Both the position numbers and the translations under genes were made by a program. This document shows, piece after piece, positions 37,076 to 56,879 of a stretch of DNA of 64,000 nucleotides; the first letter of the stretch is position 1, and each line of letters starts with the position of its first letter. Source of the stretch: Bacillota bacterium (GTDB lineage Bacteria > Bacillota > Desulfotomaculia > Desulfotomaculales > Ammonificaceae). Under the pieces are notes generated by a model. It ran no database searches. It worked only from the letters and a program-made list of their open reading frames with translations, and was not told where the DNA came from. The stretch spans positions 35,932 through 99,931 of the forward strand of contig JBFMBK010000007.1 in the NCBI GenBank assembly GCA_040755295.1, written 5' to 3'.

Positions 37076-37107
37076 CAGGTGCCGTCACGAATTCGTGAAG
37101 GGGTCAG

Positions 37108-37953
37108 GTGGCAGTTATGTATTGGCGAATATCAGGCCGGAATGCGGTCTTTATTGTGGCTTTTTCCCAGTTGGTGCTGCTGTTTGTGGCTTATTACGTG
37201 CATTTCCAGGGAAAAGTCGTTTTCTCCCCAGGCCGGCTGGTTGTCCCGGTTGCCTTCGCGGCAAGCATACTGCTCGGTTTATACATCGCCAAGAGAATGG
37301 TTAACCTTTATGAAAAAGATGCTCTACTATCCACCAGAGCCGCTATGGCCGAGAGCTTCACCAGCCTGGCCCAATCGACGTATGCTCAGAACCGGGAGTT
37401 TACACGGCACATAGAGAGGATTTCATCCCTCTGCAGGGAAAACAGAGTTCAGGACCTGTCCGATTACCTCGCAGAAATGTCGGGGAACATCTCCGTGCTT
37501 AACAGCGTGTTGAAGGTGGACAATCCGATAATCGGCGCCCTTTTAAAAGCAAAAGCGACCGAGGCCGATATCAGGCGCATCAAGCTTGAGATCGATGTTT
37601 CAACCTCGCTTGATCATTTAGGGATAAGGGCTCTTGCGGTAGCGCGAATCATCGGCAACCTTATCGACAACGCATTTGATGCGGTTTCCGGTTTACAGGC
37701 GAACAGAAGGGTTGATGTGAGGCTCTACCGGGAAGGACCCCTGCTGCAGATTATGATCAGCAACCAGGGCCCGGCGATAAGTGCGGACGCCGCAAACCTT
37801 ATTTTCAACCCCGGTCACACCACAAAGGGAGAAGGCCACAGCGGCCTCGGACTGCATATAGTAAAGACCCTTACAGAAGAACTGCTCGGCAAAGTCGATG
37901 TTATTTCGGACGAAGCAAAGGGGACGTGTTTTACAGTGACCCTGCCGGCGTAG
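37108..37953 (+). CDS. GHKL sensor kinase (SpoOB/AgrC-type) with 2 TM helices and an atypical H-box
   Basis: N-box IGNLIDNAFDAV, G1 SNQGPAI, G2 GHSGLGLHIV. The H-box region reads AQNREFTRHIE, with Arg where RHDF-type kinases carry the phospho-His. Confidence 0.8.
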   Translation: MAVMYWRISGRNAVFIVAFSQLVLLFVAYYVHFQGKVVFSPGRLVVPVAFAASILLGLYIAKRMVNLYEKDALLSTRAAMAESFTSLAQSTYAQNREFTRHIERISSLCRENRVQDLSDYLAEMSGNISVLNSVLKVDNPIIGALLKAKATEADIRRIKLEIDVSTSLDHLGIRALAVARIIGNLIDNAFDAVSGLQANRRVDVRLYREGPLLQIMISNQGPAISADAANLIFNPGHTTKGEGHSGLGLHIVKTLTEELLGKVDVISDEAKGTCFTVTLPA

Positions 37954-37965
37954 TTTAGAGGTCGG

Positions 37966-37993
37966 GTGAGATGTGAGAGGTGAGATGTGAGAG
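37966..37993. repeat. perfect tandem 14-mer x2 (gtgagatgtgagag) within a GAGGTCGGG-type repeat
   Basis: Read directly: 37966-37979 is identical to 37980-37993, preceded by gaggtcggg. Confidence 0.8.
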
Positions 37994-38249
37994 GAAACCA
38001 AGAATAACCGCGGCATGTATTATATAACCTTACCGGGTTGAAAAACCAAATCCGTTCCACAAGGAAGTTTATTATTTTCCCCGTTGATGCTTTACGCTTC
38101 TACGCAGTATAATGCGGTTGGAGAAAGGCTGCGGCATAGACGACGAATCGCTGCCGATTGGCTTTCCAGCCGTCGTCTTCATAGATGCTCCTGCCGTTAA
38201 ACCGCTGGAGTAATTACTGTATGTTTTTGTTTTAGGAGGAAAATAGCGC

Positions 38250-40232: not shown

Positions 40233-40748
40233 ATGAAGAAAGTAATTGCCATATTCAGCGTCCTGCTCCTTGTCTTAGGTATACCGGCAACAGCCCTTGC
40301 GGCTACGGATACAACCAATGTTACGGGAGACATCGCAGAAACGATTTCCATCAGCACGCCGGCAACGATCGCTCTGGGCGCCCTGACGGTAGCAGCGAAC
40401 AACACGAGCGCCGACCAGACGCTTACCGTTTACGCCAACAACTCGAGCAAGACGGTGTCTCTCACGGTGTGTGACAACAATCAGGTTGCCGACATCGGGA
40501 AAATGGCGTCAGGGGCAAATATTCTGACTGACCCGCTTAACGTAAAAGGCGGGGACGTGGCCGCTTACACCGCCCTGCCCGAAGTCGCAGCCAGTACGAT
40601 CACCTTGGAGAATGCGGGTGCGGTAAACGGCGCCACGGGACAGTACCAGGTTACTGATTTCAGCGTGAGGCAGTACGTGTACTGGAGCGATGAGCAGGCT
40701 GCCGGTTACGCCATCACCCTGCTCTTTACAACCGGTTACACCACTTAA
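40233..40748 (+). CDS. secreted 171-aa protein consisting only of the CTD shared with the three giant proteins
   Basis: Signal peptide MKKVIAIFSVLLLVLGIPATALA/AT. The mature part aligns by eye along its length with the last ~135 aa of the giants (ISISTPATIALGAL~ISIIAPDGVSGWSL; VRQYVYWSDEQAAGYAITLLFTTGYTT~FKQTVGWVDQPLSGGYSYKIVVTFTASVTV). Confidence 0.85.
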   Translation: MKKVIAIFSVLLLVLGIPATALAATDTTNVTGDIAETISISTPATIALGALTVAANNTSADQTLTVYANNSSKTVSLTVCDNNQVADIGKMASGANILTDPLNVKGGDVAAYTALPEVAASTITLENAGAVNGATGQYQVTDFSVRQYVYWSDEQAAGYAITLLFTTGYTT

Positions 40749-41299: not shown

Positions 41300-42688
41300 T
41301 TGAGAAAGACGTTATCAGGGATTGTCGCTGTTTTGACGTTTATGTTAATTGTCGCCGTCTTTGGGGTTGAACGGGCCGGCGCGGCCTTCAGCGTCGGCGG
41401 CGCCATGGTGGACATGGAGGCTTCTCCCGGAACATATAAACATGTAATGCAGGTAAGCCTGGGACCCGACGACGCCGCCACCGATGTCCAGGTGATACTG
41501 GGGGGCCTCGGCCAGCAGTCCGACGGGGTCGTGAAGGTCCTGTCGCCGGCTGAAGACACCAGCCCTTATTCGGCATGCGGCTTCATCAGTCTGGACCAAA
41601 GCCGGTTTCACGTCGGACCGGACCAAAGCGTTCAGTTCAACGCCTTTATTAACATTCCGGAGAGCGTGGGCGCGGGGGGCAGGTACGCCGCTATCCGGGT
41701 CTGCACCGTTCCCTCGGGCGGGGGTACGCTGCAGGTTGCATCCGGGGTGGACATCCCCGTCAAGCTCACCATTAAAGGAACGAGTCTGACGCATACCGGT
41801 GAGATTAACGGACTCGGCGCCGGACCCGTAACCGTAGGAAAACCGGTAGAGATATCTACAACATTCAGAAACACCGGAAACCACCATTTCAAAATTAAGG
41901 GCTTTGTCACGGTAAGCAACGCCGACGGGCAGACGATCGGCAGCGCATCCATCCCTCTTACGGCTGCCAACGTGATTCCGACCATGTCCCGGCTGCTGAG
42001 ATCGACCGTTACGCCCGTAAGCGTTCTCACTGCAGGTGAATACACGATACATGCCAAGATAATGGCTGAGGACGGCGCCGTGCTGGACGAGGCCGAGACC
42101 AAATTCACCGTGAACCCGGAGGAAGACTTCACAGATATCGCCGGGCACTGGGCTGAGAATGATATTAAAACAATGGCGCGACTGGGCATCGTCAGGGGCA
42201 TGGGGGATAAAAGGTTCAACCCCTCGGGTGCGGTAACACGGGCGCAGTTCGCCGGTTTTCTTATCCGTAGTTTAAACATCCAAGAAACCCGGCCTTCTGA
42301 GGGCTATTTCGAGGATGTACCCTCGGACGCCTGGTACTATGGGGCGGTGGAGACGGCCTACGCCAACGGACTTGCCTTCGGTTACGGAGACGGGACCTTT
42401 AAGCCCGATGCGAACATAACGAGGGAGGAACTTGCGGCGATGGTGGTGAGGGGCCTTAATAAAGGTGGAAAGACAGTGGCCCCGGCGGACCATAAGGTTC
42501 TGTCGCAGTTCGTAGATAAGTGGAAAATAAAACAGTGGGCGCGGGATTCGGCAGCTATCGCCGTCAGGGAAGGCCTCATAAAGGGTCAGGAAGGCAAGCG
42601 GTTTGCGCCGTCTAAAAACGCTACCAGGGCGGAAGCGGTTGTAATGCTGAAGCGGATGCTGGTCAGCCTTGGAAGACTGTCCGGATGA
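41300..42688 (+). CDS. S-layer-homology (3x SLH) anchored protein with two-beta-domain N-terminal region (DUF916/DUF3324-like), paralogue 1
   Basis: TTG at 41300 after aaggggg. Signal peptide LRKTLSGIVAVLTFMLIVAVFGVERAGA/AF. The C-terminal SLH repeats are FTDIAGHWAENDIKTMARLGIVRG.., FEDVPSDAWYYGAVETAYANGLAFGYGDGTFKP.. and ..WARDSAAIAVREGLIKG. It is a paralogue of 48240-49697. Confidence 0.85.
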   Translation: MRKTLSGIVAVLTFMLIVAVFGVERAGAAFSVGGAMVDMEASPGTYKHVMQVSLGPDDAATDVQVILGGLGQQSDGVVKVLSPAEDTSPYSACGFISLDQSRFHVGPDQSVQFNAFINIPESVGAGGRYAAIRVCTVPSGGGTLQVASGVDIPVKLTIKGTSLTHTGEINGLGAGPVTVGKPVEISTTFRNTGNHHFKIKGFVTVSNADGQTIGSASIPLTAANVIPTMSRLLRSTVTPVSVLTAGEYTIHAKIMAEDGAVLDEAETKFTVNPEEDFTDIAGHWAENDIKTMARLGIVRGMGDKRFNPSGAVTRAQFAGFLIRSLNIQETRPSEGYFEDVPSDAWYYGAVETAYANGLAFGYGDGTFKPDANITREELAAMVVRGLNKGGKTVAPADHKVLSQFVDKWKIKQWARDSAAIAVREGLIKGQEGKRFAPSKNATRAEAVVMLKRMLVSLGRLSG

Positions 42689-42827: not shown

Positions 42828-45800
42828 ATGGTACTCTTGATGCGGCAAAAACCGAAGCATAGAAACCGCTATTTGTTATTGCGGCAAAGTCTGATGACAG
42901 CCGTAATGGTTGCTTGCTGCTTTATCTGCACCGGCACCGCCGCCCTGGCCGCGGGCTGGAGGACCGAGACGGTGGACAGCGGCGGGGTTGTCGGAGAATA
43001 CACGGGCATAGCCGTAGATTCGTCCGCGTACGCGCACATCAGCTATTACGACGGCACCAACACCGACCTGAAGCACGCCTACCAGGACAGCAGCGGCTGG
43101 CACACCGAGTTCGCGCAGGCATCGGCCGCAAACGATATCGGACAATGGACGTCGATAGACCTGGATGGGTCCGATTACCCATACATAAGCCACTACGGCG
43201 CGAGCGGCAACAACCTGAAATATACCTACCAGAACGTTTCGGGCTGGAACAACGAGGGACCGGATTCGACGGGCGACGTGGGCAAGTACACCTCCACAAA
43301 AGTGGATGCGTCGAATTACCCACACGTCAGTTATTACGACGCTACCAACATCTACCTGAAGTACGCTTATAAGGATGCCGGCGGCTGGCACATAGAGACG
43401 GCGGACACCGGTGCGGGGACATGGACTTCCCTGGCGCTCGACTCGTCAGGCTACCCGCACATCAGCTACAAATATTCCGGGACCAGTGATCTGAGGTACG
43501 CCTATAAAGACGCCGGCGGTTGGCACATCGAGAGCGTGGATACCGCGGGCAACACCGGGGGCCACACCGCTATCGTCCTGGACGGCTCGAACTACCCGCA
43601 CATCAGCTATCGCGACATCACCAACGCCAAATTGAAATACGCCTACAAGGACGGTTCGGGCTGGCATATCGAAGACGTGACCGTGGCCGGCAACGATGCA
43701 TGGTATACCTCGATTGCGCTTGATTCGTCGGGTTATCCGCATATCAGTTACTATGACTACGTAAACTTTGACCTCGGTTACGCTTATAAGGACGGCTCGG
43801 GCTGGCACATCAGTACCGTGGACGGCACAGGGGACGTCGGGGCGTACACCGCGATAGCGCTGGTGTCCGATATCCCCCGGATAAGCTACTACGACGGTAC
43901 CAACGGCGACCTGAAGTACGCCTGGTGGGACCCCGATACCGTCGCGCCTACGGTACAGAGCACCGACCCGGTTGATAGCGCTACCGATGTGATCGTCGGG
44001 AAAACAATTACCGTAACCTTCTCTGAGAATATCCAGGCCGGCTCGGCTTACGCGAGCGTAAACATAAAGGACCAGACCGGTGCGGATGTGGCGTTTGCCA
44101 AGAGCATCGCCGGCGATGTCCTCACCATCGACCCGACGAGCAATTTGAGTTATAGCGTGAGTTATACCGTGTATGTGCCCGCGAATTCAATAAAGGACAT
44201 GGGGGACAACGGCCTGGCGGCCGACTGCACGTTCAGTTTTACGACCGAAGCCGACACAACGCCGCCGGCGGTGCAGAGTACGGACCCGGCCAACGGCGCT
44301 GCCGGCGTGGTCGTGGGCAAAACGATCACGGTCACATTCAGTGAAAACATCCAGGCGGGCGACAATTACGCTCAAATCACATTGAAGGATAATAACAACA
44401 ATAATGCCGCTTTCACCAAGAGCATCGCCGACGCGGTGTTGACCATCGATCCGACCGGCGACCTCAACAGCAATTTAACCTACACCGCATCGATTCCCGC
44501 GGGTGCCATCAAAGACTTACTCAACAACGCGACTACAAGCGAATACAGCTTTAGCTTTACCACCGAGAATACGGGTTCCACCGCGACGGTGGACAGCACG
44601 GGCAACGTCGGGCAGTACACATCCATCAAGGTGGACGGGTCAAACAATCCTCGTATCAGTTACTACGACGTCACCAACGCCGACCTGAAGTACGCTTACA
44701 AGGACGGCAGCGGCTGGCACACCGAGACTATAGATAGTACAGGCACTGTGGGTTTGCATACCTCACTTGCCATTGACGCTTCCGGTTACCCCAGGATCAG
44801 TTATTCCGACAATACGAACTATGACCTGAAGTACGCTTACAAAGACGCCGCCGGCTGGCACACGGAAACCGCCGATAGTGGCGGCAGTGTGGGGCAATAC
44901 TCTTCTATTGCTCTTGACGGTTCCGGCTACCCGCATATCAGCTATCATGACTGGATTTTCAACTACGACCTCAAGTACGCTTACAAAGACGCCGGCGGCT
45001 GGCATGCCGAAACGGTGGATGGTGCAGGGAGTACAGGTACATATACCTCCATCGCGCTTAGTGTTTTGAATTACCCTTATATAAGCTACTACGATTACAC
45101 CAACTATGACCTGAAGCTGGCTTACAAGGACGCCGGCGGGTGGCATACCGAGACCGTGGACGGCGCGACCTACATGGTGGGTTCTTATACCTCCATAGCG
45201 CTTAATGGTTCCGGTTATCCGTGCATCAGCTACTATGACGATTCCAACGACGATCTGATGTACGCCTATAAGGACGCCGGCGGCTGGCATACAGAGACCG
45301 TTGACAGCACGGGCAGCGTGGGATCGTATACATCATTGGCCCTCGATACTTCCGGTTACCCGCATATCAGCTATTATGACGGCAGCCCACTCGATTTGAA
45401 ATACGCTTATAAGGACGGCTCCGGGTGGCATCTTCAAACCCTGGACAGTAACGGCACCGTAGGGCAATATACGTCGATAGACATCGACTCATCCAATTAC
45501 GCGCACATCAGCTATTACGACACGACCAACGGTGACCTAAAGTATATCTGGACGGGCGACACCAGTGCGCCGACGGTGAGCAGCACGGGCCCGGCATCCG
45601 GCGCGACCGGCGTACTCGTCGGTCAGACAATTACCGTCAATTTCAGCGAAAACGTGCAGACCGGGGACAATTACGCAAGCATCAACCTGAAGGATGAATC
45701 CGGCAATGACGTGGCCTTTGTCAAAAGCATCAACGGTGCGGCGCTTACGATCGACCCGACCAGCAACCTTGATTACAGCGTAACCTACACGGTCTACGTC

Positions 45801-48227
45801 CCGGCCGGCTGCGTCGAAGACATGGTAGGCAGCGCCCTGGCCGCCGACAACAACTTCAGTTTCACCACGGAGGCGGACACTTACGGGCCCACGGTGAGCA
45901 GCACCAATCCCGGTAACGGTACGGGTTGCGTGCCGACAGGCCAAACCATTACCGTTACCTTCGGTGAAAACGTCCAGGCGGGAAGCAGCTATGCGAGCAT
46001 CAACCTGAAAGACCAGTACGGCAATAACACGGCTTTTGGCAAGAGCATCAACGGCCAGGTGTTGTCCATCGACCCTACCAGCAACCTTAAGTATTCGGTG
46101 ACCTACACGGTCTATGTTCCCGCGGACTCGATCGACGACCTGCTGGGGAACGGGACGGACAGCGACTATACCTTCAATTTCACCACCGGAACCGGCACCG
46201 GTGACATGACGATCGTTGACGGCACGGGCTCGGTGGGGCAATATGCGTCGATAGCACTTGACGGTTCCGGCTACCCGCACATCAGTTACTACGACAGCTT
46301 CGTGAACTACGACCTTAAGTATGCCTATAAGGACGCCGGCGGCTGGCACACCGAGACGTTGGACAGCGCTGGGAGCGTGGGTACGTATACTTCTTTGGCT
46401 CTCGACGCATCCAATTATCCGCACATCAGTTATTACGACGGCACGAACTACGACCTCAAGTACGCCTATAAGGACGCCGGCGGCTGGCACACCGAAACCG
46501 TGGACAGCGCGGGGAGCGTGGGACAGTATACGTCGATCGCCCTTGATAATTCAAATTACCCGTATATTAGCTATTACGACGCTACTAACTATGATCTCAA
46601 GTATGCGTATAAGGACGCCGGCGGCTGGCATGTAGAGACCGCGGAGGGCGCCAACAGCGTGGGAATGTTTACGTCCATATCCCTTGATGCGTCGAACTAC
46701 CCGCACATAAGCTACTACGACAACGTACCCAACTACGATCTGAGGTACACGTACAAGGACGCCGGCGGCTGGCACGCCGAAACCGTGGACAACAGCGCTA
46801 CCTATCCCGGCCAGTACACGTCGATAAAGCTGAACGCGTCCGGTTACCCCCACATCGGCCATTACGACGGTTCCAGCGCCGACCTCAAGTACGCCTATAA
46901 AGACGCCGGCGGCTGGCACTTGGAAACCGTCGACAGCGCGGGGAGCGTCGGATCTTATACATCATTGGATCTCGACGCGTCGGACTACCCGCACATCAGT
47001 TATTTTGACGGCGGTAACTGGGACCTGAAATACGCCTTTAAGGACGGCAGCGGGTGGCATACATACACGGTTGATTGCACGGGGATGGTCGGACAGTTCA
47101 CGTCGCTGGTCCTCGACACGAACGACGTGGCGCATATAAGCTACTACACGGTAACAAACGCCGACCTAAAGTACGTTAGTTGGTCGCCGGGAAGCAGCCC
47201 GGCGGTAGACAGCACCGACCCGGCGGGCGGGACCGTTGACGTGGTGGTCGAAAAAACCGTTACCGTTACCTTTGACGCGGACATTCAGGCCGGCGACAAC
47301 TACGCCCAGATAGACGTGAAGCACCAGAACGGCACAAGCATTCCCTTTACAAAGAGTATCGCGGGCGCGGTGCTGACGATCGACCCGACCGGCAACCTGG
47401 CCAACAGCGTCAGCTACACGGTGTACGTCCCGGAAAACGCGGTGAAAGACCTAAACAACAACGGACTGGCCGACGATTACACCTTCAGCTTCACCACCGA
47501 GGCGGACGCCGGCGCGCCGACGGTGCAGAGCACCGACCCGGCAAACGGCGCCACCAGCGTGGCGATAGACAAGACCATAACCGTCACCTTCAACGAGGAC
47601 ATCCAGGCGGGTGACAACTACGGACTTGTCAACCTGAAGGACCAGGGGGGCGTCGATGTGGCGTTTACCAAGAGCATCGCCGGCGCGGTGTTGACCATCG
47701 ACCCGGACAGCGACCTCAGCAACAGCGTTACGTATACCGTTTACGTTCCAGCGGGCTCGGTGAAAGACCTTACAAACAACGCCCTTGCTGCCGACTACAC
47801 CTTCAGTTTTACCACCATAAGCGGGTCGACCACCATCAGCATCATCGCGCCGGACGGCGTCAGCGGTTGGAGTCTGGACCCGTCCGCCGGCCAGCCCGAG
47901 ACAGAGTCCGGCACCCTTTCCGTTACCGTTGATCCTGCCGGCACACCCTGGGAGGTCACGGCGGCCGACAGCGACACCGTCAATACCAACGGGAGGATGA
48001 CCGCCTGGAACGGTTCCTACGACACCGACAGCAAACTGCAGAACGCGATGAAGATTGCGGGAGATTACGAGGTGACTTTGCCCAGCGGCGGTAAGATCGC
48101 CGACGGCGCCGGGGGAGGGTCCGTCCCGGTGACCTTCAAACAGACGGTGGGCTGGGTGGACCAGCCGCTATCGGGGGGCTACTCCTATAAGATTGTTGTC
48201 ACCTTTACCGCATCGGTCACGGTGTAG
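42828..48227 (+). CDS. giant secreted protein 1: [7-bladed propeller - Big_5 - Big_5] x3 - CTD
   Basis: The ORF is open from 42735. The ATG at 42828 gives the signal peptide MVLLMRQKPKHRNRYLLLRQSLMTAVMVACCFICTGTAALA. It has 21 copies of the ~47-aa repeat (G.YTSIALD.SGYPHISYYD..N.DLKYAYKDAGGWH.E.VD) and 6 Big_5-type Ig domains (P.V.STDPANGA.GV...TITVTFSENIQAG.NY..I.LKD....V.F.KSI.G.VLTIDP...L....YTVYVP....KD...N.LA.D..FSFTT). No SLH, LPXTG or TM anchor. Confidence 0.9.
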   Translation: MVLLMRQKPKHRNRYLLLRQSLMTAVMVACCFICTGTAALAAGWRTETVDSGGVVGEYTGIAVDSSAYAHISYYDGTNTDLKHAYQDSSGWHTEFAQASAANDIGQWTSIDLDGSDYPYISHYGASGNNLKYTYQNVSGWNNEGPDSTGDVGKYTSTKVDASNYPHVSYYDATNIYLKYAYKDAGGWHIETADTGAGTWTSLALDSSGYPHISYKYSGTSDLRYAYKDAGGWHIESVDTAGNTGGHTAIVLDGSNYPHISYRDITNAKLKYAYKDGSGWHIEDVTVAGNDAWYTSIALDSSGYPHISYYDYVNFDLGYAYKDGSGWHISTVDGTGDVGAYTAIALVSDIPRISYYDGTNGDLKYAWWDPDTVAPTVQSTDPVDSATDVIVGKTITVTFSENIQAGSAYASVNIKDQTGADVAFAKSIAGDVLTIDPTSNLSYSVSYTVYVPANSIKDMGDNGLAADCTFSFTTEADTTPPAVQSTDPANGAAGVVVGKTITVTFSENIQAGDNYAQITLKDNNNNNAAFTKSIADAVLTIDPTGDLNSNLTYTASIPAGAIKDLLNNATTSEYSFSFTTENTGSTATVDSTGNVGQYTSIKVDGSNNPRISYYDVTNADLKYAYKDGSGWHTETIDSTGTVGLHTSLAIDASGYPRISYSDNTNYDLKYAYKDAAGWHTETADSGGSVGQYSSIALDGSGYPHISYHDWIFNYDLKYAYKDAGGWHAETVDGAGSTGTYTSIALSVLNYPYISYYDYTNYDLKLAYKDAGGWHTETVDGATYMVGSYTSIALNGSGYPCISYYDDSNDDLMYAYKDAGGWHTETVDSTGSVGSYTSLALDTSGYPHISYYDGSPLDLKYAYKDGSGWHLQTLDSNGTVGQYTSIDIDSSNYAHISYYDTTNGDLKYIWTGDTSAPTVSSTGPASGATGVLVGQTITVNFSENVQTGDNYASINLKDESGNDVAFVKSINGAALTIDPTSNLDYSVTYTVYVPAGCVEDMVGSALAADNNFSFTTEADTYGPTVSSTNPGNGTGCVPTGQTITVTFGENVQAGSSYASINLKDQYGNNTAFGKSINGQVLSIDPTSNLKYSVTYTVYVPADSIDDLLGNGTDSDYTFNFTTGTGTGDMTIVDGTGSVGQYASIALDGSGYPHISYYDSFVNYDLKYAYKDAGGWHTETLDSAGSVGTYTSLALDASNYPHISYYDGTNYDLKYAYKDAGGWHTETVDSAGSVGQYTSIALDNSNYPYISYYDATNYDLKYAYKDAGGWHVETAEGANSVGMFTSISLDASNYPHISYYDNVPNYDLRYTYKDAGGWHAETVDNSATYPGQYTSIKLNASGYPHIGHYDGSSADLKYAYKDAGGWHLETVDSAGSVGSYTSLDLDASDYPHISYFDGGNWDLKYAFKDGSGWHTYTVDCTGMVGQFTSLVLDTNDVAHISYYTVTNADLKYVSWSPGSSPAVDSTDPAGGTVDVVVEKTVTVTFDADIQAGDNYAQIDVKHQNGTSIPFTKSIAGAVLTIDPTGNLANSVSYTVYVPENAVKDLNNNGLADDYTFSFTTEADAGAPTVQSTDPANGATSVAIDKTITVTFNEDIQAGDNYGLVNLKDQGGVDVAFTKSIAGAVLTIDPDSDLSNSVTYTVYVPAGSVKDLTNNALAADYTFSFTTISGSTTISIIAPDGVSGWSLDPSAGQPETESGTLSVTVDPAGTPWEVTAADSDTVNTNGRMTAWNGSYDTDSKLQNAMKIAGDYEVTLPSGGKIADGAGGGSVPVTFKQTVGWVDQPLSGGYSYKIVVTFTASVTV
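42954..43931 (+). repeat. propeller array 1 of giant 1 (7 blade repeats, velcro-type closure)
   Basis: It starts with an isolated GWRTETVD strand and ends after DLKYAWWD without one. Seven ~47-aa units were counted by eye. Confidence 0.75.
44577..45560 (+). repeat. propeller array 2 of giant 1 (7 blade repeats)
   Basis: TATVDSTGNVGQYTSIKVD... through ...DLKYIWTGD. Seven units counted by eye. Confidence 0.75.
46200..47185 (+). repeat. propeller array 3 of giant 1 (7 blade repeats; most uniform copies)
   Basis: MTIVDGTGSVGQYASIALD... through ...DLKYVSWSP. Adjacent units share long identical DNA stretches, for example tataaggacgccggcggctggcacaccga at 46325 and 46466. Confidence 0.75.
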
Positions 48228-48239
48228 GGGGAGCGTATC

Positions 48240-49697
48240 ATGTGTCTAAAGTCTTTTATAGCATGCCTGCTGGCATTTTCACTAAGCCTTGCGCCAGCAA
48301 ACACTTGTTTTGCGAATCCCGGTTTGGTGGTCGGTGGGGCCACCATCGACAGGGAGGTCGGTCCCGGTATTTACAGCCACGTAATCGCGGTCAGCCTGGG
48401 GCAGGGAGACCCGGCCACCGACGTCCAGGTTAATGTGAAGGGTTTCGGGCAGAAATCCGACGGCGTCCTGGAACCTGTTTCGCCTGCTCTTGACACCGGT
48501 CCGTACACGGCGCGCGGCTTTATCAACGTAGACAGCGCGTCGTTTCACCTTGATCCGGGAGAATCGAAGGACGTTAACGTCACTATCAACGTTCCCGGCG
48601 GCGTCGGTGACGGAGGAAGGTACGCGGTGATAAGCGTTTGTTTGTCTCCTCCCGCCGGGGGAGACGTCAATGTGGCGTCCGGCATAGTCGTCCCCGTCGT
48701 ATTGACCATTCAGGGGAGTGAGTTTGTTCACAGCGGGGAGATAAGCGGCCTGTCCGCCAATGTTGCAAACGAGGGACAGTATGTAGAAATAATGACCGGT
48801 TTTCGAAACACGGGGAACCATCACTTTAAAATTAAAGGAGAGGGTACGGTATACAGCGCCGGCGGACAGGCGCTCGCAACGATAAGCGAGCCGCTTGCCG
48901 CTTCTTCATTGATCCCCGCCATGTCCATGCTGCTTAAGGCAACTTACGCGCCGGCGGGAGGACTCAGCCCGGGTAATTACTCGGTCCTTTCTAGGGTGAT
49001 GCTTGAGGACGGCACCCTGCTGGACGAAGCCACCGGGCAGTTTACGGTGACTGTTAAGACGCCCGGACCCGCAGGCGGCGGTTACTCAGGTTTGCCGGGG
49101 AGAAACCCAAATGTCAATACGCCATTATCCCCGGCATTTAACGATATCGCCGGGCACTGGGCTGAAAGCGACTTAAAGGTAATGTCCGGGTTGAGAATCG
49201 TCCGCGGGGTCGGCGGCGGAAAGTTCTGTCCGGACAGGCCGGTTACCAGGGCGGAGTTTGCGGCCTTTTTGATCCGGAGCCTGGGTATCGAAGAAGTCCA
49301 ACCGAAGGGCGGTCATTTCAAGGATGTCCGGGACGGCGATTGGTATTACGGGGCGGTGGAAGCGGCTTTTAAGGCGGGACTGCTGCGGGGATACCCGGAT
49401 GGTTCCTTGCGGCCGAACGCCCGGATTACCAGGGAAGAGATCGCCGCAATCCTGGCACGGGTTTTGACCCAGAACCAGAAACAGGCAACAACCGATATCG
49501 AGACGGTGTTAGCGCGATTCACCGATCGGATAAGGATCGCCATTTGGGCCCGAAAGGCAGCCGCGCTGACCGCGCAGGAACGCATAATCGAGGGCCGGAG
49601 CGGTGGGCTGTTTGCGCCAAAAGAGAACGCGACCCGGGCGGAAGCGGTTGTCCTGCTGAAACGGATGCTGGTCAGCCTCGGGAGGCTGTCTTGTTGA
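48240..49697 (+). CDS. SLH-anchored (3x SLH) protein, paralogue 2
   Basis: ATG 12 nt after the giant-1 stop. Signal peptide MCLKSFIACLLAFSLSLAPANTCFA/NP. The domain order matches 41300-42688 (..GRYAVISV.., ..FRNTGNHHFKIKGEGTV.., SLH FNDIAGHWAESDLKVMSGLRIVRG..). Confidence 0.88.
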   Translation: MCLKSFIACLLAFSLSLAPANTCFANPGLVVGGATIDREVGPGIYSHVIAVSLGQGDPATDVQVNVKGFGQKSDGVLEPVSPALDTGPYTARGFINVDSASFHLDPGESKDVNVTINVPGGVGDGGRYAVISVCLSPPAGGDVNVASGIVVPVVLTIQGSEFVHSGEISGLSANVANEGQYVEIMTGFRNTGNHHFKIKGEGTVYSAGGQALATISEPLAASSLIPAMSMLLKATYAPAGGLSPGNYSVLSRVMLEDGTLLDEATGQFTVTVKTPGPAGGGYSGLPGRNPNVNTPLSPAFNDIAGHWAESDLKVMSGLRIVRGVGGGKFCPDRPVTRAEFAAFLIRSLGIEEVQPKGGHFKDVRDGDWYYGAVEAAFKAGLLRGYPDGSLRPNARITREEIAAILARVLTQNQKQATTDIETVLARFTDRIRIAIWARKAAALTAQERIIEGRSGGLFAPKENATRAEAVVLLKRMLVSLGRLSC

Positions 49698-51294: not shown

Positions 51295-51326
51295 ATGCGG
51301 GTGTAAACTAACAGACGTGAGTAAAA

Positions 51327-51558: not shown

Positions 51559-54500
51559 TTGAAAGCTGGTCGAACTATGGTTCTCGTAAGGTGGGTAACC
51601 CGTTTCGCTTTCAGGTGTTGTCTGCCCAGACGCAGAATGGTACTGGGGACGGCGCTTTTTTTCTTTATACTTGCGGTTGTTGGGACGTGTGACGTTGCCT
51701 TGGCGTTTCAGACTCCGGGATACTGGGCAACGGAGTACGTCGCCTACGAGGGGCACACCGTAGGAAGGTTTTCATCGCTTGTACTTGACGGGTCAGGAAA
51801 TCCCCACATCAGCCATTACGATGCGACTAGCGGCGACCTGCTCTATTCATACGAAGACGGCTCAGGCTGGCACACCGAAAACGTGGACGGCGCCGGGAGC
51901 GACGTGGGGAAGTACACGTCCATCGTCCTTGACGGCAGTGGTTACCCCCATATCAGCTACTACGACACCACCAACGGCAACCTGAAATACGCTTACAAGG
52001 ATGCCGGCGGCTGGCACGCGGAGACCGAGGACCAGGACACGGCCGGCAACGTCGGGCAATATACGTCGCTGGCCTTGAACGGGTCCGGGTATCCATGCAT
52101 CAGTTACTACGACGTTAGCAACACCAATCTCAAGTATACCTATAAAGACGCCGGCGGCTGGCATGCCGAGAACGCCCATGGTTCGGCCAACGATGTTGGG
52201 AAGTACTCGTCCATGAAGCTGAACGCGTCCGGGTACCCCTGTGTCGGCTACTACGATGCGACGGCCGGCGACCTGAATTACGTCTATAAAACCGCCGGCG
52301 GCTGGCAGGCGCCCGCCCAGGTGGACGGCGCCACGAACAACCAGGGGCAGTACTCGTCGCTGGCGTTTAACGCCTCCGGGTATCCGTGCATCAGCTACAT
52401 CGCCGTTGCCAACAACAATATCAGGTACGCCTGGTGGGACGGCGCAGCCTGGAACAAACAGGCCGCATCCGCCGGGATCTTTCAGGGCACGGATACGTCC
52501 CTCGCCTTTGACAACAGCGATCTGCCTGCGATCAGTTATTGCGATTTGTCCGGTGACCTGAGTTACGTGTACAAAGACGCCGGCGGCACCTGGTGGTCTC
52601 AACACCCGAACGTAGCTTGTGGATCAACTTATCAAACCTCTTTGAAATTCGACGCTGACGGCAACCCACGCATCAGCTGTTACTACTCGACCACAGGGAT
52701 ATTAGGTTATGCTCGGTGGGTCTACGATGCCGCTGCGCCGACGGTACAGAGCACCGACCCGGCAAACGGCGCCACCGGCGTGGCGCTTAATAAAACCATT
52801 ACCGCCACTTTCGACGAGAACATTCAGCAGGGCGCCAACTGGAGCAGCATCGCCCTAAAAGACCAGGCCGGCGCCGACGTTGCTTTTGCCAAGAACATCG
52901 CCAACAGCGTCCTTACCATTGACCCGTTTAGCAATTTCAACTACGGCGTGACCTACTGGGTGTACGCCGTGGCCGGTTCGGTAAAGGACATGGCCGAGAA
53001 CGGTTTGGCGGGCGACTACGTGTTCAGCTTTACCGCCGTGGCTGATACGACGGCCCCTACCGTCAGCAATACGAACCCTTCTAACGGCGCCATGTACGTT
53101 CCCCTGACCAAGACGATAACCGTCACTTTCAACGAGAACATCCAGGCCGGGGACAACTACGGCAGCATTACCTTGAAGGACAGTGCGGAAACAACCGTGG
53201 CTGTCACCAAAAGCATCAACGGTGCCATACTTACAATCGACCCCGACGGCAACCTCGACTATAGCGAAACCTATACGGTGCGGCTTCCGGCCGGTGCTAT
53301 CGAGGACGTGTGGGGGAACGGCCTTGCCGGTGACTACACCTTCAGCTTCACCACGTCAGGCTGGTGGACCGAGACCGTGGACGGCGCAAGTGCCAACGTG
53401 GGGCAATGGACTTCGATTAAGATCGATGCTTCCGGTTATCCGCATATCAGTTATTACGACACCACCAATACCGATCTTAAATACACTTACCAGGACGCCG
53501 GCGGCTGGCACACCGAGACGATCGACGGCGCAGGTGTCAGCGTGGGGCAGTATACGTCCTTGGCCCTTGATACTTCCGACTATCCGCGCGTAAGCTATTA
53601 CGACACGACCAACGGCGACCTAAAGTATGCATATAAAGACGGGTCTGGCTGGCACACTGAGCAGGCGTCCGGCGCCGGCGTCAACTCGGGTTTATACACC
53701 TCAATAATTCTTGATGCGTCCGGCTACCCCCATATCAGCTACCTTGAGTGGTACAACTCTGGTCCATACGGAGAACCTTTATATAATCTCAAGCATGCTT
53801 ATAAGGACGCCGGCGGCTGGCACACCGAGACGGCGGACGGCGGTGATTGTTTCGGCGACACTACTTCGATCGACCTGGACGCGTCCGGTTATCCCCACAT
53901 CAGCTATTGCAGCGCGATATACGATGTGTGGCAGGATACTTATGTCGCCAACCTCAAATATGCGTACAAGGACGGGTCGGGGTGGAACTTGAGTGCCCCT
54001 GATAGTGCGGGTGACATCAGCGGTCACTGGCCGTCTCTGACCCTGGATGATTCTGATTATCCTCATATAAGTTATCAAGATAGCGCCCACCTGGAGTACG
54101 CATATAAGGACGGTAGCGGCTGGCATTACACCACTGTCGATAACTCAGCGGGTTCATGTACGTCTATCAGCCTGGACGTTTCCGGGTATCCGTGTATAAG
54201 TTACAGCGGCGGGCTTAAATACGCCTATAAAAACGCGTCCGGCTGGCACACGGAAACCGCGGACAGCGCAGGCTACTATACGTCGTTTGCCTTCGACACG
54301 TCCGGCCTCCCTCATGCCAGCTACTGGGACAACGCCAACGGCGACCTGAAGTATGCTTACCGGCCGGCCGATGTCTACCTGCCGACGGTACATAGCACCA
54401 ACCCTGCCGATGCGGCCGTTAACATCCCGGTAACCAAGACCGTCACGGTCACCTTCAGCGAAAACGTGCTGGCAGGCGCCAACTACGGACTGATCACCCT

Positions 54501-56400
54501 GAAGGACGGGGACGGCGCCGACGTGGCGTTTTCCAAGAGTATCAACGCCGCGGTGCTGACCATCGATCCGAACGGCGACCTTGAACGTAGCGTCACCTTT
54601 GCGGTTTATCTTCCTCCCGGAGCGGTCAAGGACACCGCGGATAATGCACTGGCCGACAGCTGCAGTTTCAGCTTTACCACCACGGCCTGGCAAATAACTA
54701 CCGTGGACGGTTCAGGGGGAGGTTATACGTCAATAGCTCTCGACGTATATGGGTATCCCCACATAAGTTACACAGCCGGCAGTACGTTGAAATATGTCTA
54801 TCAAAATGCCTCAGGCTGGCATACGGAAAACGTGGCAAACGCCCGCGTGGACGCTATGTGGACTTCAATCGCCCTGGATGCGTCGGGGAAACCGCATATT
54901 AGTTTCTGTGACTATTATTGGGATGAATTCTGGAACTATGATGGAGACTTAATATACGCTTTCAAAAACGGAAACTGGCAGACATACAATGTGGATAGTG
55001 CCGGCGACGTTGGTTATTACAATTCAATAAAAGTAGACTCAGGGTACCCGCACATCAGCTACTTCGACGATACCAACAACGACCTGAAATACGCTTCCAA
55101 GGACGCCGGCGGCTGGCATACGGAAACCGCAGACAATACAGGCAACGTAGGTAAAAACACGTCAATAGCCATTGACGGTACCGGGTATCCGCACATCAGC
55201 TACTTCGACGATACCAACTACGACCTTAAATATGTATACAAGGACGGCGGCGGCTGGCACGCCGAGACCGTGGACAGCGCCGGCAACGTGGGTTCGTACA
55301 CTGCGATCGCTTTGGATGCTTCGAATTACCCCCATATCAGCTATTACGACTATACCAATACCAACCTTAAATACGTGTACCAGGACGGTTCCGGCTGGCA
55401 CGCCGAAACCGTGGACGGCGCAAGCGCAACCGTAGGTTGGTACACATCAATAGCTTTGGGCCCTTTTAATTACCCGCGCATCAGTTACTATGACAATACC
55501 AACGGCGACCTCAAGTACGCGTACAAAGACGGTTCGGGCTGGCACGCCATGCAGGCGGACGGAACGGAAAGCAGCGTAGGCACGTACACGTCGCTGGCTT
55601 TGGACGCCTCGTATAACCCGCATATAAGCTACTACGACGGCGCCAATTACGACCTGAAGTACGCTTATCGGGATTTCTCTGCGCCGACAATCCAGAGCAC
55701 CGACCCGGCAAACGGCGCCACCGGGGTGGCTGTAAACAAGACCATTACCGTCACCTTCAGCGAGGACGTCCGGGCGGGCGGCAACTATCCGCAAGTTAAT
55801 TTGAAGCATCAAGACGGCAGCAACGTCGCATTTACCAAGAGCATCGCCGGCGCGGTGCTCACCATCGATCCCACAAGTGACCTGAGCAACAGCGTCACCT
55901 ACACCGTTTACGTTCCGGCGGGTTCGATAGAGGACTTAACCGATAATGCACTCGCCGCCGACTACAACTTCAGCTTTATTACCACTTCCGGCGGCGGCGG
56001 ACCAACCATCTCCATTACCCCCCCCCCTGGTATCAGCGGCTGGAGCCTGAACCCGTCTGCAAGCCAGCCCCAGACACAGGCCGGGACTCTTATCGTCGGA
56101 GTGGATCCCGACGATGAGTCCTGGGAGGTTACGGCGGAGGACGCCGACACCGCGAACACCAACGGCAAGATGACAGCCTGGAACGGTTCTTACGACACCG
56201 GCAGCAAATTACAGAACGCGATGAAGGTAGCGGCGGAATACGAGGTGACGCTGCCCGTCGGCGGCAAGATCGCGGATAATACCGGCGACCAGTCTGCTGA
56301 TGTGACCTTCAAGCAGACCGTAAGTTGGGCGGACCCGCCGCTGTCCGGCGGTTACTCCTACAGGATTATTGTTACCTTTACCGCATCGTTAACGGTATGA
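51559..56400 (+). CDS. giant secreted protein 2: propeller - Big_5 x2 - propeller - Big_5 - propeller - Big_5 - CTD
   Basis: 1613-aa ORF with alternative starts at 51577 and 51637. Signal peptide ..MVLGTALFFFILAVVGTCDVALA/FQ. The propellers lie at about 51718-52728, 53356-54372 and 54683-55674, and the CTD at 55987-56397. Confidence 0.9.
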   Translation: MKAGRTMVLVRWVTRFAFRCCLPRRRMVLGTALFFFILAVVGTCDVALAFQTPGYWATEYVAYEGHTVGRFSSLVLDGSGNPHISHYDATSGDLLYSYEDGSGWHTENVDGAGSDVGKYTSIVLDGSGYPHISYYDTTNGNLKYAYKDAGGWHAETEDQDTAGNVGQYTSLALNGSGYPCISYYDVSNTNLKYTYKDAGGWHAENAHGSANDVGKYSSMKLNASGYPCVGYYDATAGDLNYVYKTAGGWQAPAQVDGATNNQGQYSSLAFNASGYPCISYIAVANNNIRYAWWDGAAWNKQAASAGIFQGTDTSLAFDNSDLPAISYCDLSGDLSYVYKDAGGTWWSQHPNVACGSTYQTSLKFDADGNPRISCYYSTTGILGYARWVYDAAAPTVQSTDPANGATGVALNKTITATFDENIQQGANWSSIALKDQAGADVAFAKNIANSVLTIDPFSNFNYGVTYWVYAVAGSVKDMAENGLAGDYVFSFTAVADTTAPTVSNTNPSNGAMYVPLTKTITVTFNENIQAGDNYGSITLKDSAETTVAVTKSINGAILTIDPDGNLDYSETYTVRLPAGAIEDVWGNGLAGDYTFSFTTSGWWTETVDGASANVGQWTSIKIDASGYPHISYYDTTNTDLKYTYQDAGGWHTETIDGAGVSVGQYTSLALDTSDYPRVSYYDTTNGDLKYAYKDGSGWHTEQASGAGVNSGLYTSIILDASGYPHISYLEWYNSGPYGEPLYNLKHAYKDAGGWHTETADGGDCFGDTTSIDLDASGYPHISYCSAIYDVWQDTYVANLKYAYKDGSGWNLSAPDSAGDISGHWPSLTLDDSDYPHISYQDSAHLEYAYKDGSGWHYTTVDNSAGSCTSISLDVSGYPCISYSGGLKYAYKNASGWHTETADSAGYYTSFAFDTSGLPHASYWDNANGDLKYAYRPADVYLPTVHSTNPADAAVNIPVTKTVTVTFSENVLAGANYGLITLKDGDGADVAFSKSINAAVLTIDPNGDLERSVTFAVYLPPGAVKDTADNALADSCSFSFTTTAWQITTVDGSGGGYTSIALDVYGYPHISYTAGSTLKYVYQNASGWHTENVANARVDAMWTSIALDASGKPHISFCDYYWDEFWNYDGDLIYAFKNGNWQTYNVDSAGDVGYYNSIKVDSGYPHISYFDDTNNDLKYASKDAGGWHTETADNTGNVGKNTSIAIDGTGYPHISYFDDTNYDLKYVYKDGGGWHAETVDSAGNVGSYTAIALDASNYPHISYYDYTNTNLKYVYQDGSGWHAETVDGASATVGWYTSIALGPFNYPRISYYDNTNGDLKYAYKDGSGWHAMQADGTESSVGTYTSLALDASYNPHISYYDGANYDLKYAYRDFSAPTIQSTDPANGATGVAVNKTITVTFSEDVRAGGNYPQVNLKHQDGSNVAFTKSIAGAVLTIDPTSDLSNSVTYTVYVPAGSIEDLTDNALAADYNFSFITTSGGGGPTISITPPPGISGWSLNPSASQPQTQAGTLIVGVDPDDESWEVTAEDADTANTNGKMTAWNGSYDTGSKLQNAMKVAAEYEVTLPVGGKIADNTGDQSADVTFKQTVSWADPPLSGGYSYRIIVTFTASLTV

Positions 56401-56484: not shown

Positions 56485-56879
56485 TAACAGTTGTTTGGCC
56501 CGCGGTTTGCCGAACCGGCAGACCGCCAAGCCACCGGGGTTCTATAATCAGTCGTACGACTCTGATGGATACCGAATGCGCCTGGCGACTTAAAATTGTC
56601 AAAAAATTCTGACAAATAAAACCAGAATTTTCTCTAAAGAAACACAACCGCAATAACGAAAATTATTATGTAAATAAGTATGGCCTCCTAACATATCACA
56701 ATTAAAACCGTAGCCTATTGTACCATATTGCGAAAAATAATTTCTAACGCTCGCAGCCTATTCAATATTACTAATCCAAAGACATTAAGGTGTTGCCTGA
56801 AGACTTTCTAAGGCTGAAAGGCTTTAGCGGGAGGGCGAGGCGAGTGGTTCCAAGAGAACCGGCCGGGCAAATAATCGGC

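What the first reader, a model, noticed from the sequence alone, without database searches (positions are those of the whole stretch)
41300..42688. Paralogous SLH-anchored proteins (second copy 48240-49697) whose N-terminal halves look like DUF916/DUF3324 partner proteins with the anchor swapped
Both proteins share one layout: a signal peptide, a ~150-aa beta-rich domain, a second ~110-aa beta domain, then three SLH repeats.

- The first domain contains ..ISLDQSRFHVGPDQSVQFNAFINIPESVGAGGRYAAIRV.. and, in the paralogue, ..INVDSASFHLDPGESKDVNVTINVPGGVGDGGRYAVISV..
- The second domain contains ..FRNTGNHHFKIKG..V.....GQ......PL.A...IP.MS.LL......P...L..G.Y......M.EDG..LDEA...FTV.

This motif pattern recalls the WxL-interacting DUF916 and DUF3324 domains, which normally end in a TM or LPXTG anchor. 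Here the anchor is SLH.

One copy precedes giant 1 and the other follows it after a 12-nt gap. This suggests coupled synthesis of anchor and cargo.
Basis: partly seen in the sequence, partly recalled or inferred. Interest (0 to 1): 0.65.

Follow-up and report, generated by a model that had tools for sequence, protein, structure and literature searches.

The report
SLH-anchored WxLIP-like surface docking proteins
Two paralogous cell-wall-anchored proteins are very distant relatives of the "WxL-interacting proteins" of lactic acid bacteria, and with their neighbours they define a large, unannotated surface-display gene set that also occurs in Chloroflexota and methanogenic archaea.

Summary
Two paralogues, A (41300-42688) and B (48240-49697), are 50% identical. 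Each has a signal peptide, two beta-sandwich domains and three SLH repeats. B starts 12 nt after giant 1.

- The AlphaFold2 model of the N-half (pLDDT 96) finds the solved Enterococcus faecium WxLIP structures (DUF916+DUF3324; 9i1y, 9i25) as its three best PDB matches, over both domains and ahead of PapD-like chaperones.
- Profile-profile comparison with 32 true WxLIPs gives E 8.7e-6 over 229 colinear columns; controls score less than half.
- Invariant residues of the two families align.

The module belongs to a large family (about 3,000 50%-identity clusters at E<=1e-10). Most members end in a transmembrane helix; only a small Bacillota clade carries SLH instead.

In all 11 independent loci examined (Bacillota, Chloroflexota, methanogens), the module gene lies next to a gene for the giants' C-terminal domain (CTD). 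The CTD occurs alone in about 170-aa secreted proteins or at the end of large multidomain proteins. It is not a WxL domain by sequence, and its model resembles donor-strand pilins.

Most likely function: a wall-anchored docking protein that holds CTD-bearing surface proteins. Binding itself is inferred, not shown.

The parts
40233..40748 (+). Small secreted protein (171 aa). The mature part is a single CTD-family domain with a short N-terminal extension.
   Evidence: Aligns with the giants' C-terminal domains at 26-30% identity with shared motifs. The CTD HMM gives E 4e-40. The AF2 model has pLDDT 90.5, and its best PDB matches are donor-strand pilins.
41300..42688 (+). Paralogue A (462 aa). 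Signal peptide 41300-41386; D1 (WxLIP PGBD-like) about 41387-41776; D2 (WxLIP HBD-like) about 41798-42112; three SLH repeats 42128-42685.
42828..48227 (+). Giant 1. About 45-aa repeats plus six Big_5 domains, ending in the CTD at about 47784-48224. Start taken at ATG 42828.
   Evidence: Pfam Big_5 E 2.4e-137. CTD HMM E 3.2e-47 at the C-terminus. Start codon.
48228..48239 (+). 12-nt spacer ggggagcgtatc carrying the ribosome-binding site of paralogue B, directly after the giant 1 stop codon.
   Evidence: Sequence read directly.
48240..49697 (+). Paralogue B (485 aa). Signal peptide 48240-48314; D1 about 48315-48713; D2 about 48735-49049; Pro/Gly-rich linker 49050-49136; three SLH repeats 49137-49694.
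51559..56400 (+). Giant 2, ending in the CTD at about 55975-56397.
   Evidence: Big_5 E 1.8e-94. CTD HMM E 8.9e-49.
56790..61580 (+). Giant 3, ending in the CTD at about 61140-61577.
   Evidence: Big_5 E 6.2e-145. CTD HMM E 4.7e-47.

Best explanation
A and B are cell-wall-anchored docking proteins of a WxLIP-like surface-display system.

**Proposed mechanism**
1. After Sec export, the three SLH repeats hold each protein non-covalently on the wall polymer.
2. The two-domain N-terminal module is a distant homologue of the WxL-interacting protein (DUF916+DUF3324) of Bacilli. It captures the conserved pilin-like C-terminal domain (CTD) carried by the small 171-aa protein and the three giants.
3. 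Capture probably works by beta-strand insertion or augmentation from domain 1, as in the WxLIP-WxL complex and in chaperone-pilin complexes. This tethers the giants' repeat and Big_5 regions to the cell surface.

**Shown:** the homology and fold of the module; the SLH repeats; the CTD shared by small and large proteins; the strict gene neighbourhood across phyla; the anchor replacement (TM helix in most relatives, SLH here).

**Inferred:** physical binding, the strand-insertion mode, SLH binding to pyruvylated polymer, and translational coupling of giant 1 with B.
For: **The module is homologous to WxLIP.**
- Foldseek of a pLDDT-96 model ranks 9i1y_A, 9i25_C and 9i1y_B (EfmWxLIP1, confirmed) first: E 4.3e-11 to 2.5e-10, TM 0.60-0.65.
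- hhalign of A2 against A3 gives 83% probability, E 8.7e-6 and 229 columns covering both domains in order. Controls score 29.5 or less.
- A module-only HMM scores WxLIPs up to 32.3 bits; reversed sequences score 2.0 or less.
- Invariant residues align with invariant or nearly invariant ones: P91/P132, G97/G138, N162/N207, P198/P243, G217/G261, Y219/Y263, F240/F282.
- 20 of 54 family members give sub-threshold PF06030 hits.

**The cluster architecture equals a WxL cluster**, that is, a small domain-only protein, large proteins with the same domain at the C-terminus, and one two-domain anchored protein (PMC10599100).

**Co-occurrence is complete.** All 11 independent loci hold a CTD gene next to the module gene on the same strand, within about 170 nt in every locus except archaeal L004, whose nearest CTD gene lies about 1.8 kb upstream. 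They come from a Bacillota MAG, Chloroflexia, Dehalococcoidia, Methanocella and a methanogen-like contig.

**The cargo varies while the CTD is kept.** N-terminal regions include Big_5 with repeats, CARDB, DUF3344/FG-GAP/PKD and DUF4430.

**The CTD model resembles subunits completed by a donated strand**: FimG, PapA, FimA, CfaB, Csu, AbpA, cannulae, TasA.

**SLH and spacing.** SLH E 2.6e-41 and 4e-35. The 12-nt spacer contains an RBS.
Against: - No direct evidence of binding.
- The window proteins do not reach any curated WxLIP profile. hmmsearch of the family profile against PDB sequences found nothing.
- The WxLIP N-terminal motif NQIDKxxxYFDLK is absent.
- The CTD shows no significant similarity to WxL: hhalign 3% probability and 0 of 32 Pfam hits. 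The WxL chain 9i25_A is not among the 50 best structural matches. The partner domain may therefore bind differently.
- Pilin matches are modest (E 4e-4 to 5e-2, TM 0.37-0.57).
- Generic Ig-like profiles (fn3_5, NPCBM_assoc, CopC) hit more family members than PF06030 does.
- There are two anchors for four CTD proteins, so stoichiometry is unknown.
- csaB and the wall polymer could not be examined.
Confidence: 0.6

Rival explanations
1. Assembly chaperone or platform for a donor-strand fibre. The small protein polymerises through its conserved N-terminal extension, the giants (whose CTD lacks that extension) sit at the tip like FimH or PapG, and the anchored module acts as the chaperone, or as the basal subunit that caps and anchors the fibre. 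This would be a usher-less analogue of chaperone-usher pili.
For: - The module's second-best structural class is the PapD-like chaperones (FimC, Caf1M, DraB, CsuC; E 3e-8 to 5e-6).
- The CTD model's best matches are chaperone-usher pilins and archaeal or TasA donor-strand filaments.
- Small proteins share a conserved extension T-x-(I/V)-(T/S)-G-N before the first core strand. The CTDs of the large proteins lack it.
- Residues 1-14 of the model are not part of a strand.
Against: - No usher, and no evidence of polymerisation.
- TM-scores to chaperones are low (0.39-0.47, rmsd about 10 A), well below those to WxLIP.
- A permanent SLH or TM anchor is unlike a recycling chaperone.
- There is only one small-protein gene here, and several loci have no small protein at all (L014-L016).
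Confidence: 0.2
2. The module is itself the functional surface element, for example a wall- or glycan-binding or adhesive Ig-like pair as proposed for the WxLIP 'PGBD' and 'HBD' domains. On this view its neighbourhood with CTD genes reflects only co-regulation of surface proteins, not physical binding.
For: - The WxLIP domains were named peptidoglycan-binding and host-binding on in-silico grounds (PMC10599100).
- D2 gives weak hits to carbohydrate-associated Ig-like families: NPCBM_assoc in 33 of 54 members, CopC, DUF4165.
- Archaeal members hit the NCBIfam FxLYD domain.
Against: - The family is abundant in Dehalococcoidia and methanogens with protein S-layers. From general knowledge these lack peptidoglycan, so peptidoglycan binding cannot be the conserved role.
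- 11 of 11 loci keep the CTD partner adjacent while the rest of the cargo varies. This is what is expected of a protein-protein pair.
- The solved entry 9i25 is a WxLIP bound to a WxL protein.
Confidence: 0.12
3. Chance or generic similarity. A and B are ordinary SLH-anchored proteins with two unrelated Ig-like domains, and the WxLIP resemblance reflects only the common beta-sandwich fold.
For: - No curated profile hit for the window proteins.
- 12-13% identity to WxLIP in the structural alignment.
- hhalign probability is only 83%.
Against: - Both domains align colinearly over 229 columns, with invariant residues matched.
- Controls score less than half.
- WxLIP outranks all other PDB folds across the whole two-domain unit.
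- The cluster architecture is identical.
Confidence: 0.05

Closest known systems
WxL clusters of Lactobacillales and Bacillales: WxLIP (DUF916/PF06030 + DUF3324/PF11797 + TM helix) with small and large WxL proteins (Csc clusters; PMC10599100, PMC9772566; PDB 9i1y, 9i25)
   Same: - A signal peptide, then two tandem Ig-like domains of similar size in the same order, then a C-terminal anchor.
- Detectable homology by profile and by structure.
- The gene cluster holds a small protein consisting of the partner domain alone, plus large proteins with that domain at the C-terminus behind variable adhesive domains.
   Different: - Below every curated threshold.
- The NQIDKxxxYFDLK motif is absent.
- The anchor is three SLH repeats here. 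In most relatives it is a TM helix, sometimes behind an extra domain of about 130 aa.
- The partner domain is a different sequence family (I-x-I..P..I-x-G-W-x-L ... Y-R-I-V-V-T-F-T) with no significant match to PF13731.
- No LPXTG protein in the cluster.
- Hosts are Clostridia-like Bacillota, Chloroflexota and methanogenic archaea, not gut Bacilli.
Chaperone-usher pili: PapD/FimC-like chaperones with pilin subunits completed by a donated strand
   Same: A two-domain Ig-like protein paired with a small Ig-like subunit domain. An adhesin-like large protein carries that domain at its C-terminus. Structural matches exist on both sides.
   Different: - No usher and no outer membrane.
- No PapD Pfam hit.
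- TM-scores are only 0.4-0.57.
- The 'chaperone' is permanently anchored.
- Polymerisation has not been shown.
SLH-anchored S-layer-associated proteins of Bacillota
   Same: Three C-terminal SLH repeats, well above the Pfam threshold, on a Sec-exported protein.
   Different: Here the SLH region replaces the TM anchor of an otherwise conserved docking module. The displayed function would be supplied in trans by separate CTD-bearing proteins.
Archaeal and bacterial donor-strand filaments (AbpA bundling pili 7ueg, Pyrodictium cannulae 9h8b, TasA 8aur)
   Same: The CTD model matches these subunits weakly (E 4e-3 to 3e-2). The system also occurs in archaea.
   Different: Those filaments polymerise without an anchored two-domain partner. 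No sequence relation was found.

Membership tests
WxLIP (DUF916 + DUF3324) | Pfam PF06030 and PF11797 at or above the gathering score | tested here: not met
   No hit for A or B even at E<=10. Across the family, 20 of 54 members hit PF06030 (best E 0.0032) and 2 of 54 hit PF11797, all below threshold. True WxLIP controls score 146-177 bits.
WxLIP (DUF916 + DUF3324) | Two tandem Ig-like beta-sandwich domains (about 148 and 112 aa) forming one unit behind a signal peptide | tested here: met
   The AF2 model (pLDDT 96.1) has domains of about 130 and 105 aa. Signal peptides are seen.
WxLIP (DUF916 + DUF3324) | Structural similarity to solved WxLIP over both domains, better than to other folds | tested here: met
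   9i1y_A, 9i25_C and 9i1y_B rank 1-3 with TM 0.60-0.65. The next class reaches 0.47 or less.
WxLIP (DUF916 + DUF3324) | Sequence homology detectable by profile methods | tested here: met
   hhalign E 8.7e-6, 83% probability, 229 columns; controls. The HMM scores up to 32.3 bits against 2.0 or less for reversed sequences. It is remote: E is 0.006 when scaled to the 1.8-billion-protein library.
WxLIP (DUF916 + DUF3324) | Conserved N-terminal motif NQIDKxxxYFDLK | tested here: not met
   The aligned region reads V-x-G-A-x-x-D-x-x-V-x-P-G. Only the following P-G is shared.
WxLIP (DUF916 + DUF3324) | C-terminal transmembrane helix | tested here: not met
   A and B end in SLH repeats. About 96 of the 120 closest homologues do end in a TM helix plus basic tail.
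WxLIP (DUF916 + DUF3324) | Clustered with one small and one or more large WxL-domain (PF13731) proteins | tested here: not met
   The neighbours have the same small/large layout. Their shared domain is not PF13731: 0 of 32 members hit it, and hhalign gives 3% probability.
WxLIP (DUF916 + DUF3324) | Binds its partner domain by inserting a beta-strand | not testable with these tools
   Needs co-folding or experiment.
SLH-domain cell-wall-anchored proteins | Three SLH repeats (PF00395) | tested here: met
   E 2.6e-41 (A) and 4e-35 (B), three stretches each.
SLH-domain cell-wall-anchored proteins | Pyruvylated secondary cell-wall polymer and CsaB in the genome | not testable with these tools
   Only 64 kb of the genome is available. 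The ORFs that were scanned include no CsaB, but not every ORF of the window was scanned.
WxL domain (for the giants' CTD and the small protein) | PF13731 match with two Trp-x-Leu motifs, the second near the C-terminus | tested here: not met
   No Pfam hit. Most members have one G-W-x-L near the N-terminus of the domain, but the C-terminal strand reads Y-R-I-V-V-T-F-T. Motif order looks similar by eye, but hhalign scores only 20.1, which is noise level.
Chaperone-usher system | PapD-like chaperone, usher and pilins with N-terminal donor strands | tested here: inconclusive
   Fold-level matches exist on both sides, and small proteins have a conserved N-terminal extension. No PapD Pfam hit and no usher gene was seen in the loci.

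The most novel reading that the evidence does not exclude
The WxL/WxLIP clusters of Bacilli are one late branch of an ancient surface-display system found in both Bacteria and Archaea. In this system an anchored, chaperone-like two-domain protein completes the incomplete Ig fold of a pilin-like domain on secreted cargo. The anchor (TM helix, SLH, archaeal C-terminal tails) and the cargo are freely exchanged. Because the system thrives in lineages without peptidoglycan, its core function would be protein-protein strand complementation rather than wall binding. It may include short donor-strand-linked stalks of the form anchor, small subunit, giant adhesin.
Probability: 0.3. Interest if true: 0.8.

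Novelty: new variant of a known kind. Interest (0 to 1): 0.64.

Why it matters
- **Range of the family.** WxL/WxLIP clusters are described as almost confined to Lactobacillales and Bacillales and are discussed as peptidoglycan-binding virulence or colonisation factors (PMC10599100, PMC9772566). This locus links them to a much larger unannotated family: 8,939 cluster representatives at E<=1e-3 and 3,065 at E<=1e-10. The family lies in environmental Bacillota, Chloroflexota and methanogens.
- **Annotation.** It gives a testable role to thousands of 'hypothetical' surface proteins. It also explains how giant repeat proteins with no recognisable anchor could be held on the cell.
- **The proposed peptidoglycan role.** Many hosts lack peptidoglycan, which argues that the ancestral job of the WxLIP fold is partner capture.
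- **Modularity.** The SLH-for-TM exchange is a clean natural example of anchor modularity.

Tried and rejected
- **Curated profiles on single sequences.** Pfam and NCBIfam scans of A, B, the CTDs and the small protein gave no WxLIP or WxL hit, only weak generic Ig-like hits.
- **Family profile against PDB sequences.** hmmsearch gave 0 hits at E<=10. Sequence search alone would have missed the relation.
- **tblastn of the N-half against plasmids.** One remote Deinococcus hypothetical protein, no WxLIP.
- **hhalign of the family profile against a single WxLIP sequence.** Only 1.7% probability. A 32-sequence WxLIP alignment was needed.
- **CTD against WxL.** hhalign was run with two alignments and several modes. 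The score of 20.1 is within the range of shuffled controls. Homology is not claimed, although the motif order looks alike.
- **CTD profile against PDB sequences.** Nothing meaningful.
- **Fusion proteins joining module and CTD.** None among 142 representatives.
- **Known sorting signals in the TM-anchored homologues.** None convincing in NCBIfam.
- **The look-up of encoding contigs for the Dehalogenimonas homologue.** Not on record.
- **The search for related loci with the 54-sequence alignment.** A 12-sequence alignment was used instead, so only 8 genome loci were recovered and the co-occurrence sample is small.
Full report
**1. The observation**

The region holds a + strand gene set:
- a 171-aa secreted protein (40233-40748);
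- paralogue A (41300-42688);
- giant 1 (42828-48227);
- paralogue B (48240-49697);
- a 414-aa repeat protein (50050-51294), followed by a strong terminator-like hairpin at 51325-51352;
- giants 2 and 3 (51559-56400 and 56790-61580).

It is a TTG at 41300 behind aaggggg, giving a typical signal peptide. A and B share 50% identity over 478 residues (E 8e-161). The identity is spread evenly over D1, D2 and SLH at 52-55%. Three SLH repeats end each protein (E 2.6e-41 and 4e-35). Every quoted motif is in the translations. The 12-nt spacer between the giant 1 stop codon and the B start contains GGGGAG.

**2. What the N-terminal halves are**

*Curated profiles see nothing specific.* Pfam and NCBIfam give only weak generic Ig-like hits (NPCBM_assoc, CopC, DUF4165, fn3_5).

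*Homologues.* A search with the N-half found 192 relatives. Only the nine closest carry SLH; they come from Bacillota MAGs or this contig. About 96 of the best 120 end in a hydrophobic helix with a basic tail, often behind an extra domain of about 130 aa. Eleven are the bare module. Named sources include Dehalogenimonas formicexedens and Methanolinea. An exhaustive profile search counts 8,939 50%-identity clusters at E<=1e-3, 3,065 at 1e-10 and 403 at 1e-30.

*Structure.* An AlphaFold2 model built on 54 sequences is very confident (pLDDT 96.1, pTM 0.88) and shows two beta-sandwich domains. Foldseek against the PDB ranks three chains of the E. faecium WxL-interacting protein first:

| Chain | E-value | TM (query) | Columns |
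|---|---|---|---|
| 9i1y_A | 4.3e-11 | 0.62 | 237 |
| 9i25_C | 6.9e-11 | 0.65 | 243 |
| 9i1y_B | 2.5e-10 | 0.60 | 245 |

PapD-like pilus chaperones follow at TM 0.39-0.47. A profile of true WxLIPs confirms that these chains are EfmWxLIP1.

*Sequence-level test.* I recovered genuine WxL clusters from plasmids of E. faecium, Bacillus tropicus, Listeria and E. gilvus. Pfam verified them; PF06030 is now named WxLIP_PGBD and PF11797 WxLIP_HBD. I then collected 120 WxLIP homologues.
- hhalign of the module family (A2) against 32 WxLIPs (A3) gives 83% probability, E 8.7e-6 and score 50.4 over 229 columns. Both domains are covered in order.
- Reversed profiles score at most 23.6, twenty column shuffles at most 21.3, and other beta-rich families at most 29.5 over at most 26 columns.
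- A module-only HMM scores true WxLIPs up to 32.3 bits along hmm positions 9-245. Reversed sequences score at most 2.0 bits.
- Invariant residues of one family align with invariant or nearly invariant residues of the other: P91/P132, G97/G138, N162/N207, P198/P243, G217/G261, Y219/Y263, F240/F282.
- Twenty of 54 members give sub-threshold PF06030 hits.

I conclude that the N-halves are remote but genuine homologues of WxLIP. They lie outside the curated family boundaries and lack the NQIDKxxxYFDLK motif.

**3. The partner**

*A shared domain.* The 171-aa protein aligns with the last 135 or so residues of all three giants (26-30% identity). A family alignment shows these conserved blocks: I-x-I-x-x-P-x-x-I-x-G-W-x-L, W-x-V-T-V-x-D-A, G-x-M, Q-x-V-x-W-x-D, and a terminal Y-R-I-V-V-T-F-T.

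*Gene neighbourhood.* I ran HMMs of the module and of this CTD over six-frame ORFs of every fetched locus. All 11 independent loci have a CTD gene on the same strand as the module gene. In ten the two genes are directly adjacent, within about 170 nt; in L004 the nearest CTD gene ends about 1.8 kb upstream, with small ORFs between.

| Locus | Source | CTD neighbour |
|---|---|---|
| window | this contig | small protein upstream; three giants |
| L001 | Bacillota MAG | small protein upstream; 624-aa protein ending in the CTD |
| L003 | metagenome contig, organism not given | small protein upstream |
| L004 | methanogen-like contig | small protein and a 331-aa CTD protein upstream, nearest about 1.8 kb away |
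| L010, L011 | Chloroflexia | small protein upstream |
| L012, L013 | Dehalococcoidia | small protein upstream |
| L014 | Dehalococcoidia | 672-aa CARDB protein ending in the CTD |
| L015 | Dehalococcoidaceae | 614-aa protein ending in the CTD |
| L016 | Methanocella | 1231-aa DUF3344/FG-GAP/CARDB/PKD protein ending in the CTD |

Organism names are, and passenger domains. This layout is that of a WxL cluster: a small domain-only protein, a large protein with the same domain at its C-terminus, and one WxLIP (PMC10599100).

*The CTD is not a WxL domain by sequence.* None of 32 members hits PF13731. hhalign gives 3% probability. The WxL chain 9i25_A (identified) is absent from the 50 best structural matches.

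*Fold of the CTD.* The model of the small protein (pLDDT 90.5) matches subunits that are completed by a donated strand. These are FimG, PapA, FimA, CfaB and Csu pilins, plus AbpA, cannulae and TasA (E 4e-4 to 3e-2, TM 0.39-0.57).

**4. Mechanism**

The best-supported reading is a docking system.
- SLH fixes A and B to the wall.
- The WxLIP-like module captures the CTD of the small protein and the giants. By analogy with 9i25 and with the strand insertion predicted for WxLIP (PMC10599100), this probably involves a strand from D1. The D1 block that aligns with the WxLIP region T-N-Q-N-G-V-I-D-Y-S...D-S-S-L-K-Y is the most conserved part of D1 here (G-x-G-Q..D-G....D-T-S-P-Y-S-A-R).
- The family is common in Dehalococcoidia and in S-layer methanogens, which from general knowledge lack peptidoglycan. 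Partner capture is therefore more likely to be the conserved function than the peptidoglycan binding proposed for DUF916.

A rival deserves testing. Small proteins carry a conserved N-terminal extension (T-x-I/V-T/S-G-N) that the large proteins' CTDs lack. In chaperone-usher pili this pattern separates polymerising subunits from tip adhesins. A short donor-strand-linked stalk is therefore possible. Binding, strand exchange, the SLH ligand and translational coupling are all inferences.

**5. Comparison, novelty and verdict**

The system works like a WxL/WxLIP cluster, and at fold level like a chaperone-pilin pair. It fails several membership criteria of WxLIP in the strict sense: the Pfam threshold, the N-terminal motif, the TM anchor and PF13731 partners. 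I therefore rate it a new variant of a known kind: a distant, much more widespread branch with a different partner domain and exchangeable anchors.

Its refutation criteria were tested and not met.

Limits:
- the co-occurrence sample is small (11 loci);
- similarity to WxLIP is remote;
- no interaction test was possible.

The window's flanks (YqfD and housekeeping genes) indicate the chromosome of a spore-forming Bacillota member.

Noticed in passing
window 42828-48227, 50050-51294, 51559-56400, 56790-61580: The giants and the 414-aa ORF are built from about 45-aa repeats (G-x-Y-T-S-I/L-A-L-D-x-S-G-Y-P-H-I-S-Y-Y-D..N-x-D-L-K-Y-A-Y-K-D-x-G-G-W-H) that match no Pfam family. In the giants the repeats are interleaved with pairs of Big_5 domains. 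The 414-aa ORF has the repeats only, with no Big_5 and no CTD.
   Followed up: partly
window 51325-51352: A strong terminator-like hairpin (12-bp stem, 7 GC pairs, T-rich tail) follows the 414-aa ORF. This suggests that the small protein, A, giant 1, B and the 414-aa ORF form one transcription unit, with giants 2 and 3 in another.
   Followed up: no
P0024, P0046, P0050 and other TM-anchored homologues; L003 1492-4557: Many TM-anchored homologues carry an extra conserved domain of about 130 aa (..S-I-T-L-T-P...I-S-I-x-F-P-x-G...D-L-x-x-A-G-G-D-x-S-x-L-x-L-A-R-W-D..) between the module and the anchor. The same domain occurs in an unrelated 1021-aa protein of L003 (E 1.7e-5).
   Followed up: no
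C-termini of P0028, P0029, P0042 (bacterial) and P0084, P0091, P0097, P0108 (archaeal): Conserved sequences precede the TM helix: N-W-P-L-I-G-G in bacterial members and P-G-P-H-P-A-V-L-F-G-A-L...K-R-R-K in archaeal ones. They look like unrecognised sorting signals. NCBIfam finds no known C-terminal sorting domain.
   Followed up: partly
P0111, P0097, P0108, P0095 (archaeal homologues), domain 2: Domain 2 of archaeal members hits the NCBIfam FxLYD domain (NF038353). P0111 scores 35 bits against a cut-off of 23. FxLYD domains and WxLIP_HBD may therefore be related.
   Followed up: no
L004 7215-8210: In a methanogen-like contig, a 331-aa protein carries the CTD-like domain at its N-terminus, followed by Ig-like repeats. 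This is an exception to the C-terminal rule.
   Followed up: no
L016 2781-3755 and 9989-10927: The Methanocella locus has two module genes flanking a 1231-aa DUF3344/FG-GAP/CARDB/PKD protein that ends in the CTD. This echoes the two-paralogue arrangement of the window.
   Followed up: partly
window 36254-39836: A LytTR-type response regulator, a histidine-kinase ATPase-domain protein and a methyl-accepting chemotaxis protein lie directly upstream of the surface-protein locus. They are possible regulators.
   Followed up: no
L003 5652-7964: A 770-aa secreted protein made almost entirely of G-Q-P-G-Q-P collagen-like repeats lies a few kb upstream of the module locus.
   Followed up: no
NZ_CP034185.1 14209-14802 (Deinococcus psychrotolerans plasmid): This was the only plasmid-collection match to the module: 26% identity, E 2e-4, annotated as a hypothetical protein. 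The family therefore reaches Deinococcota.
   Followed up: no
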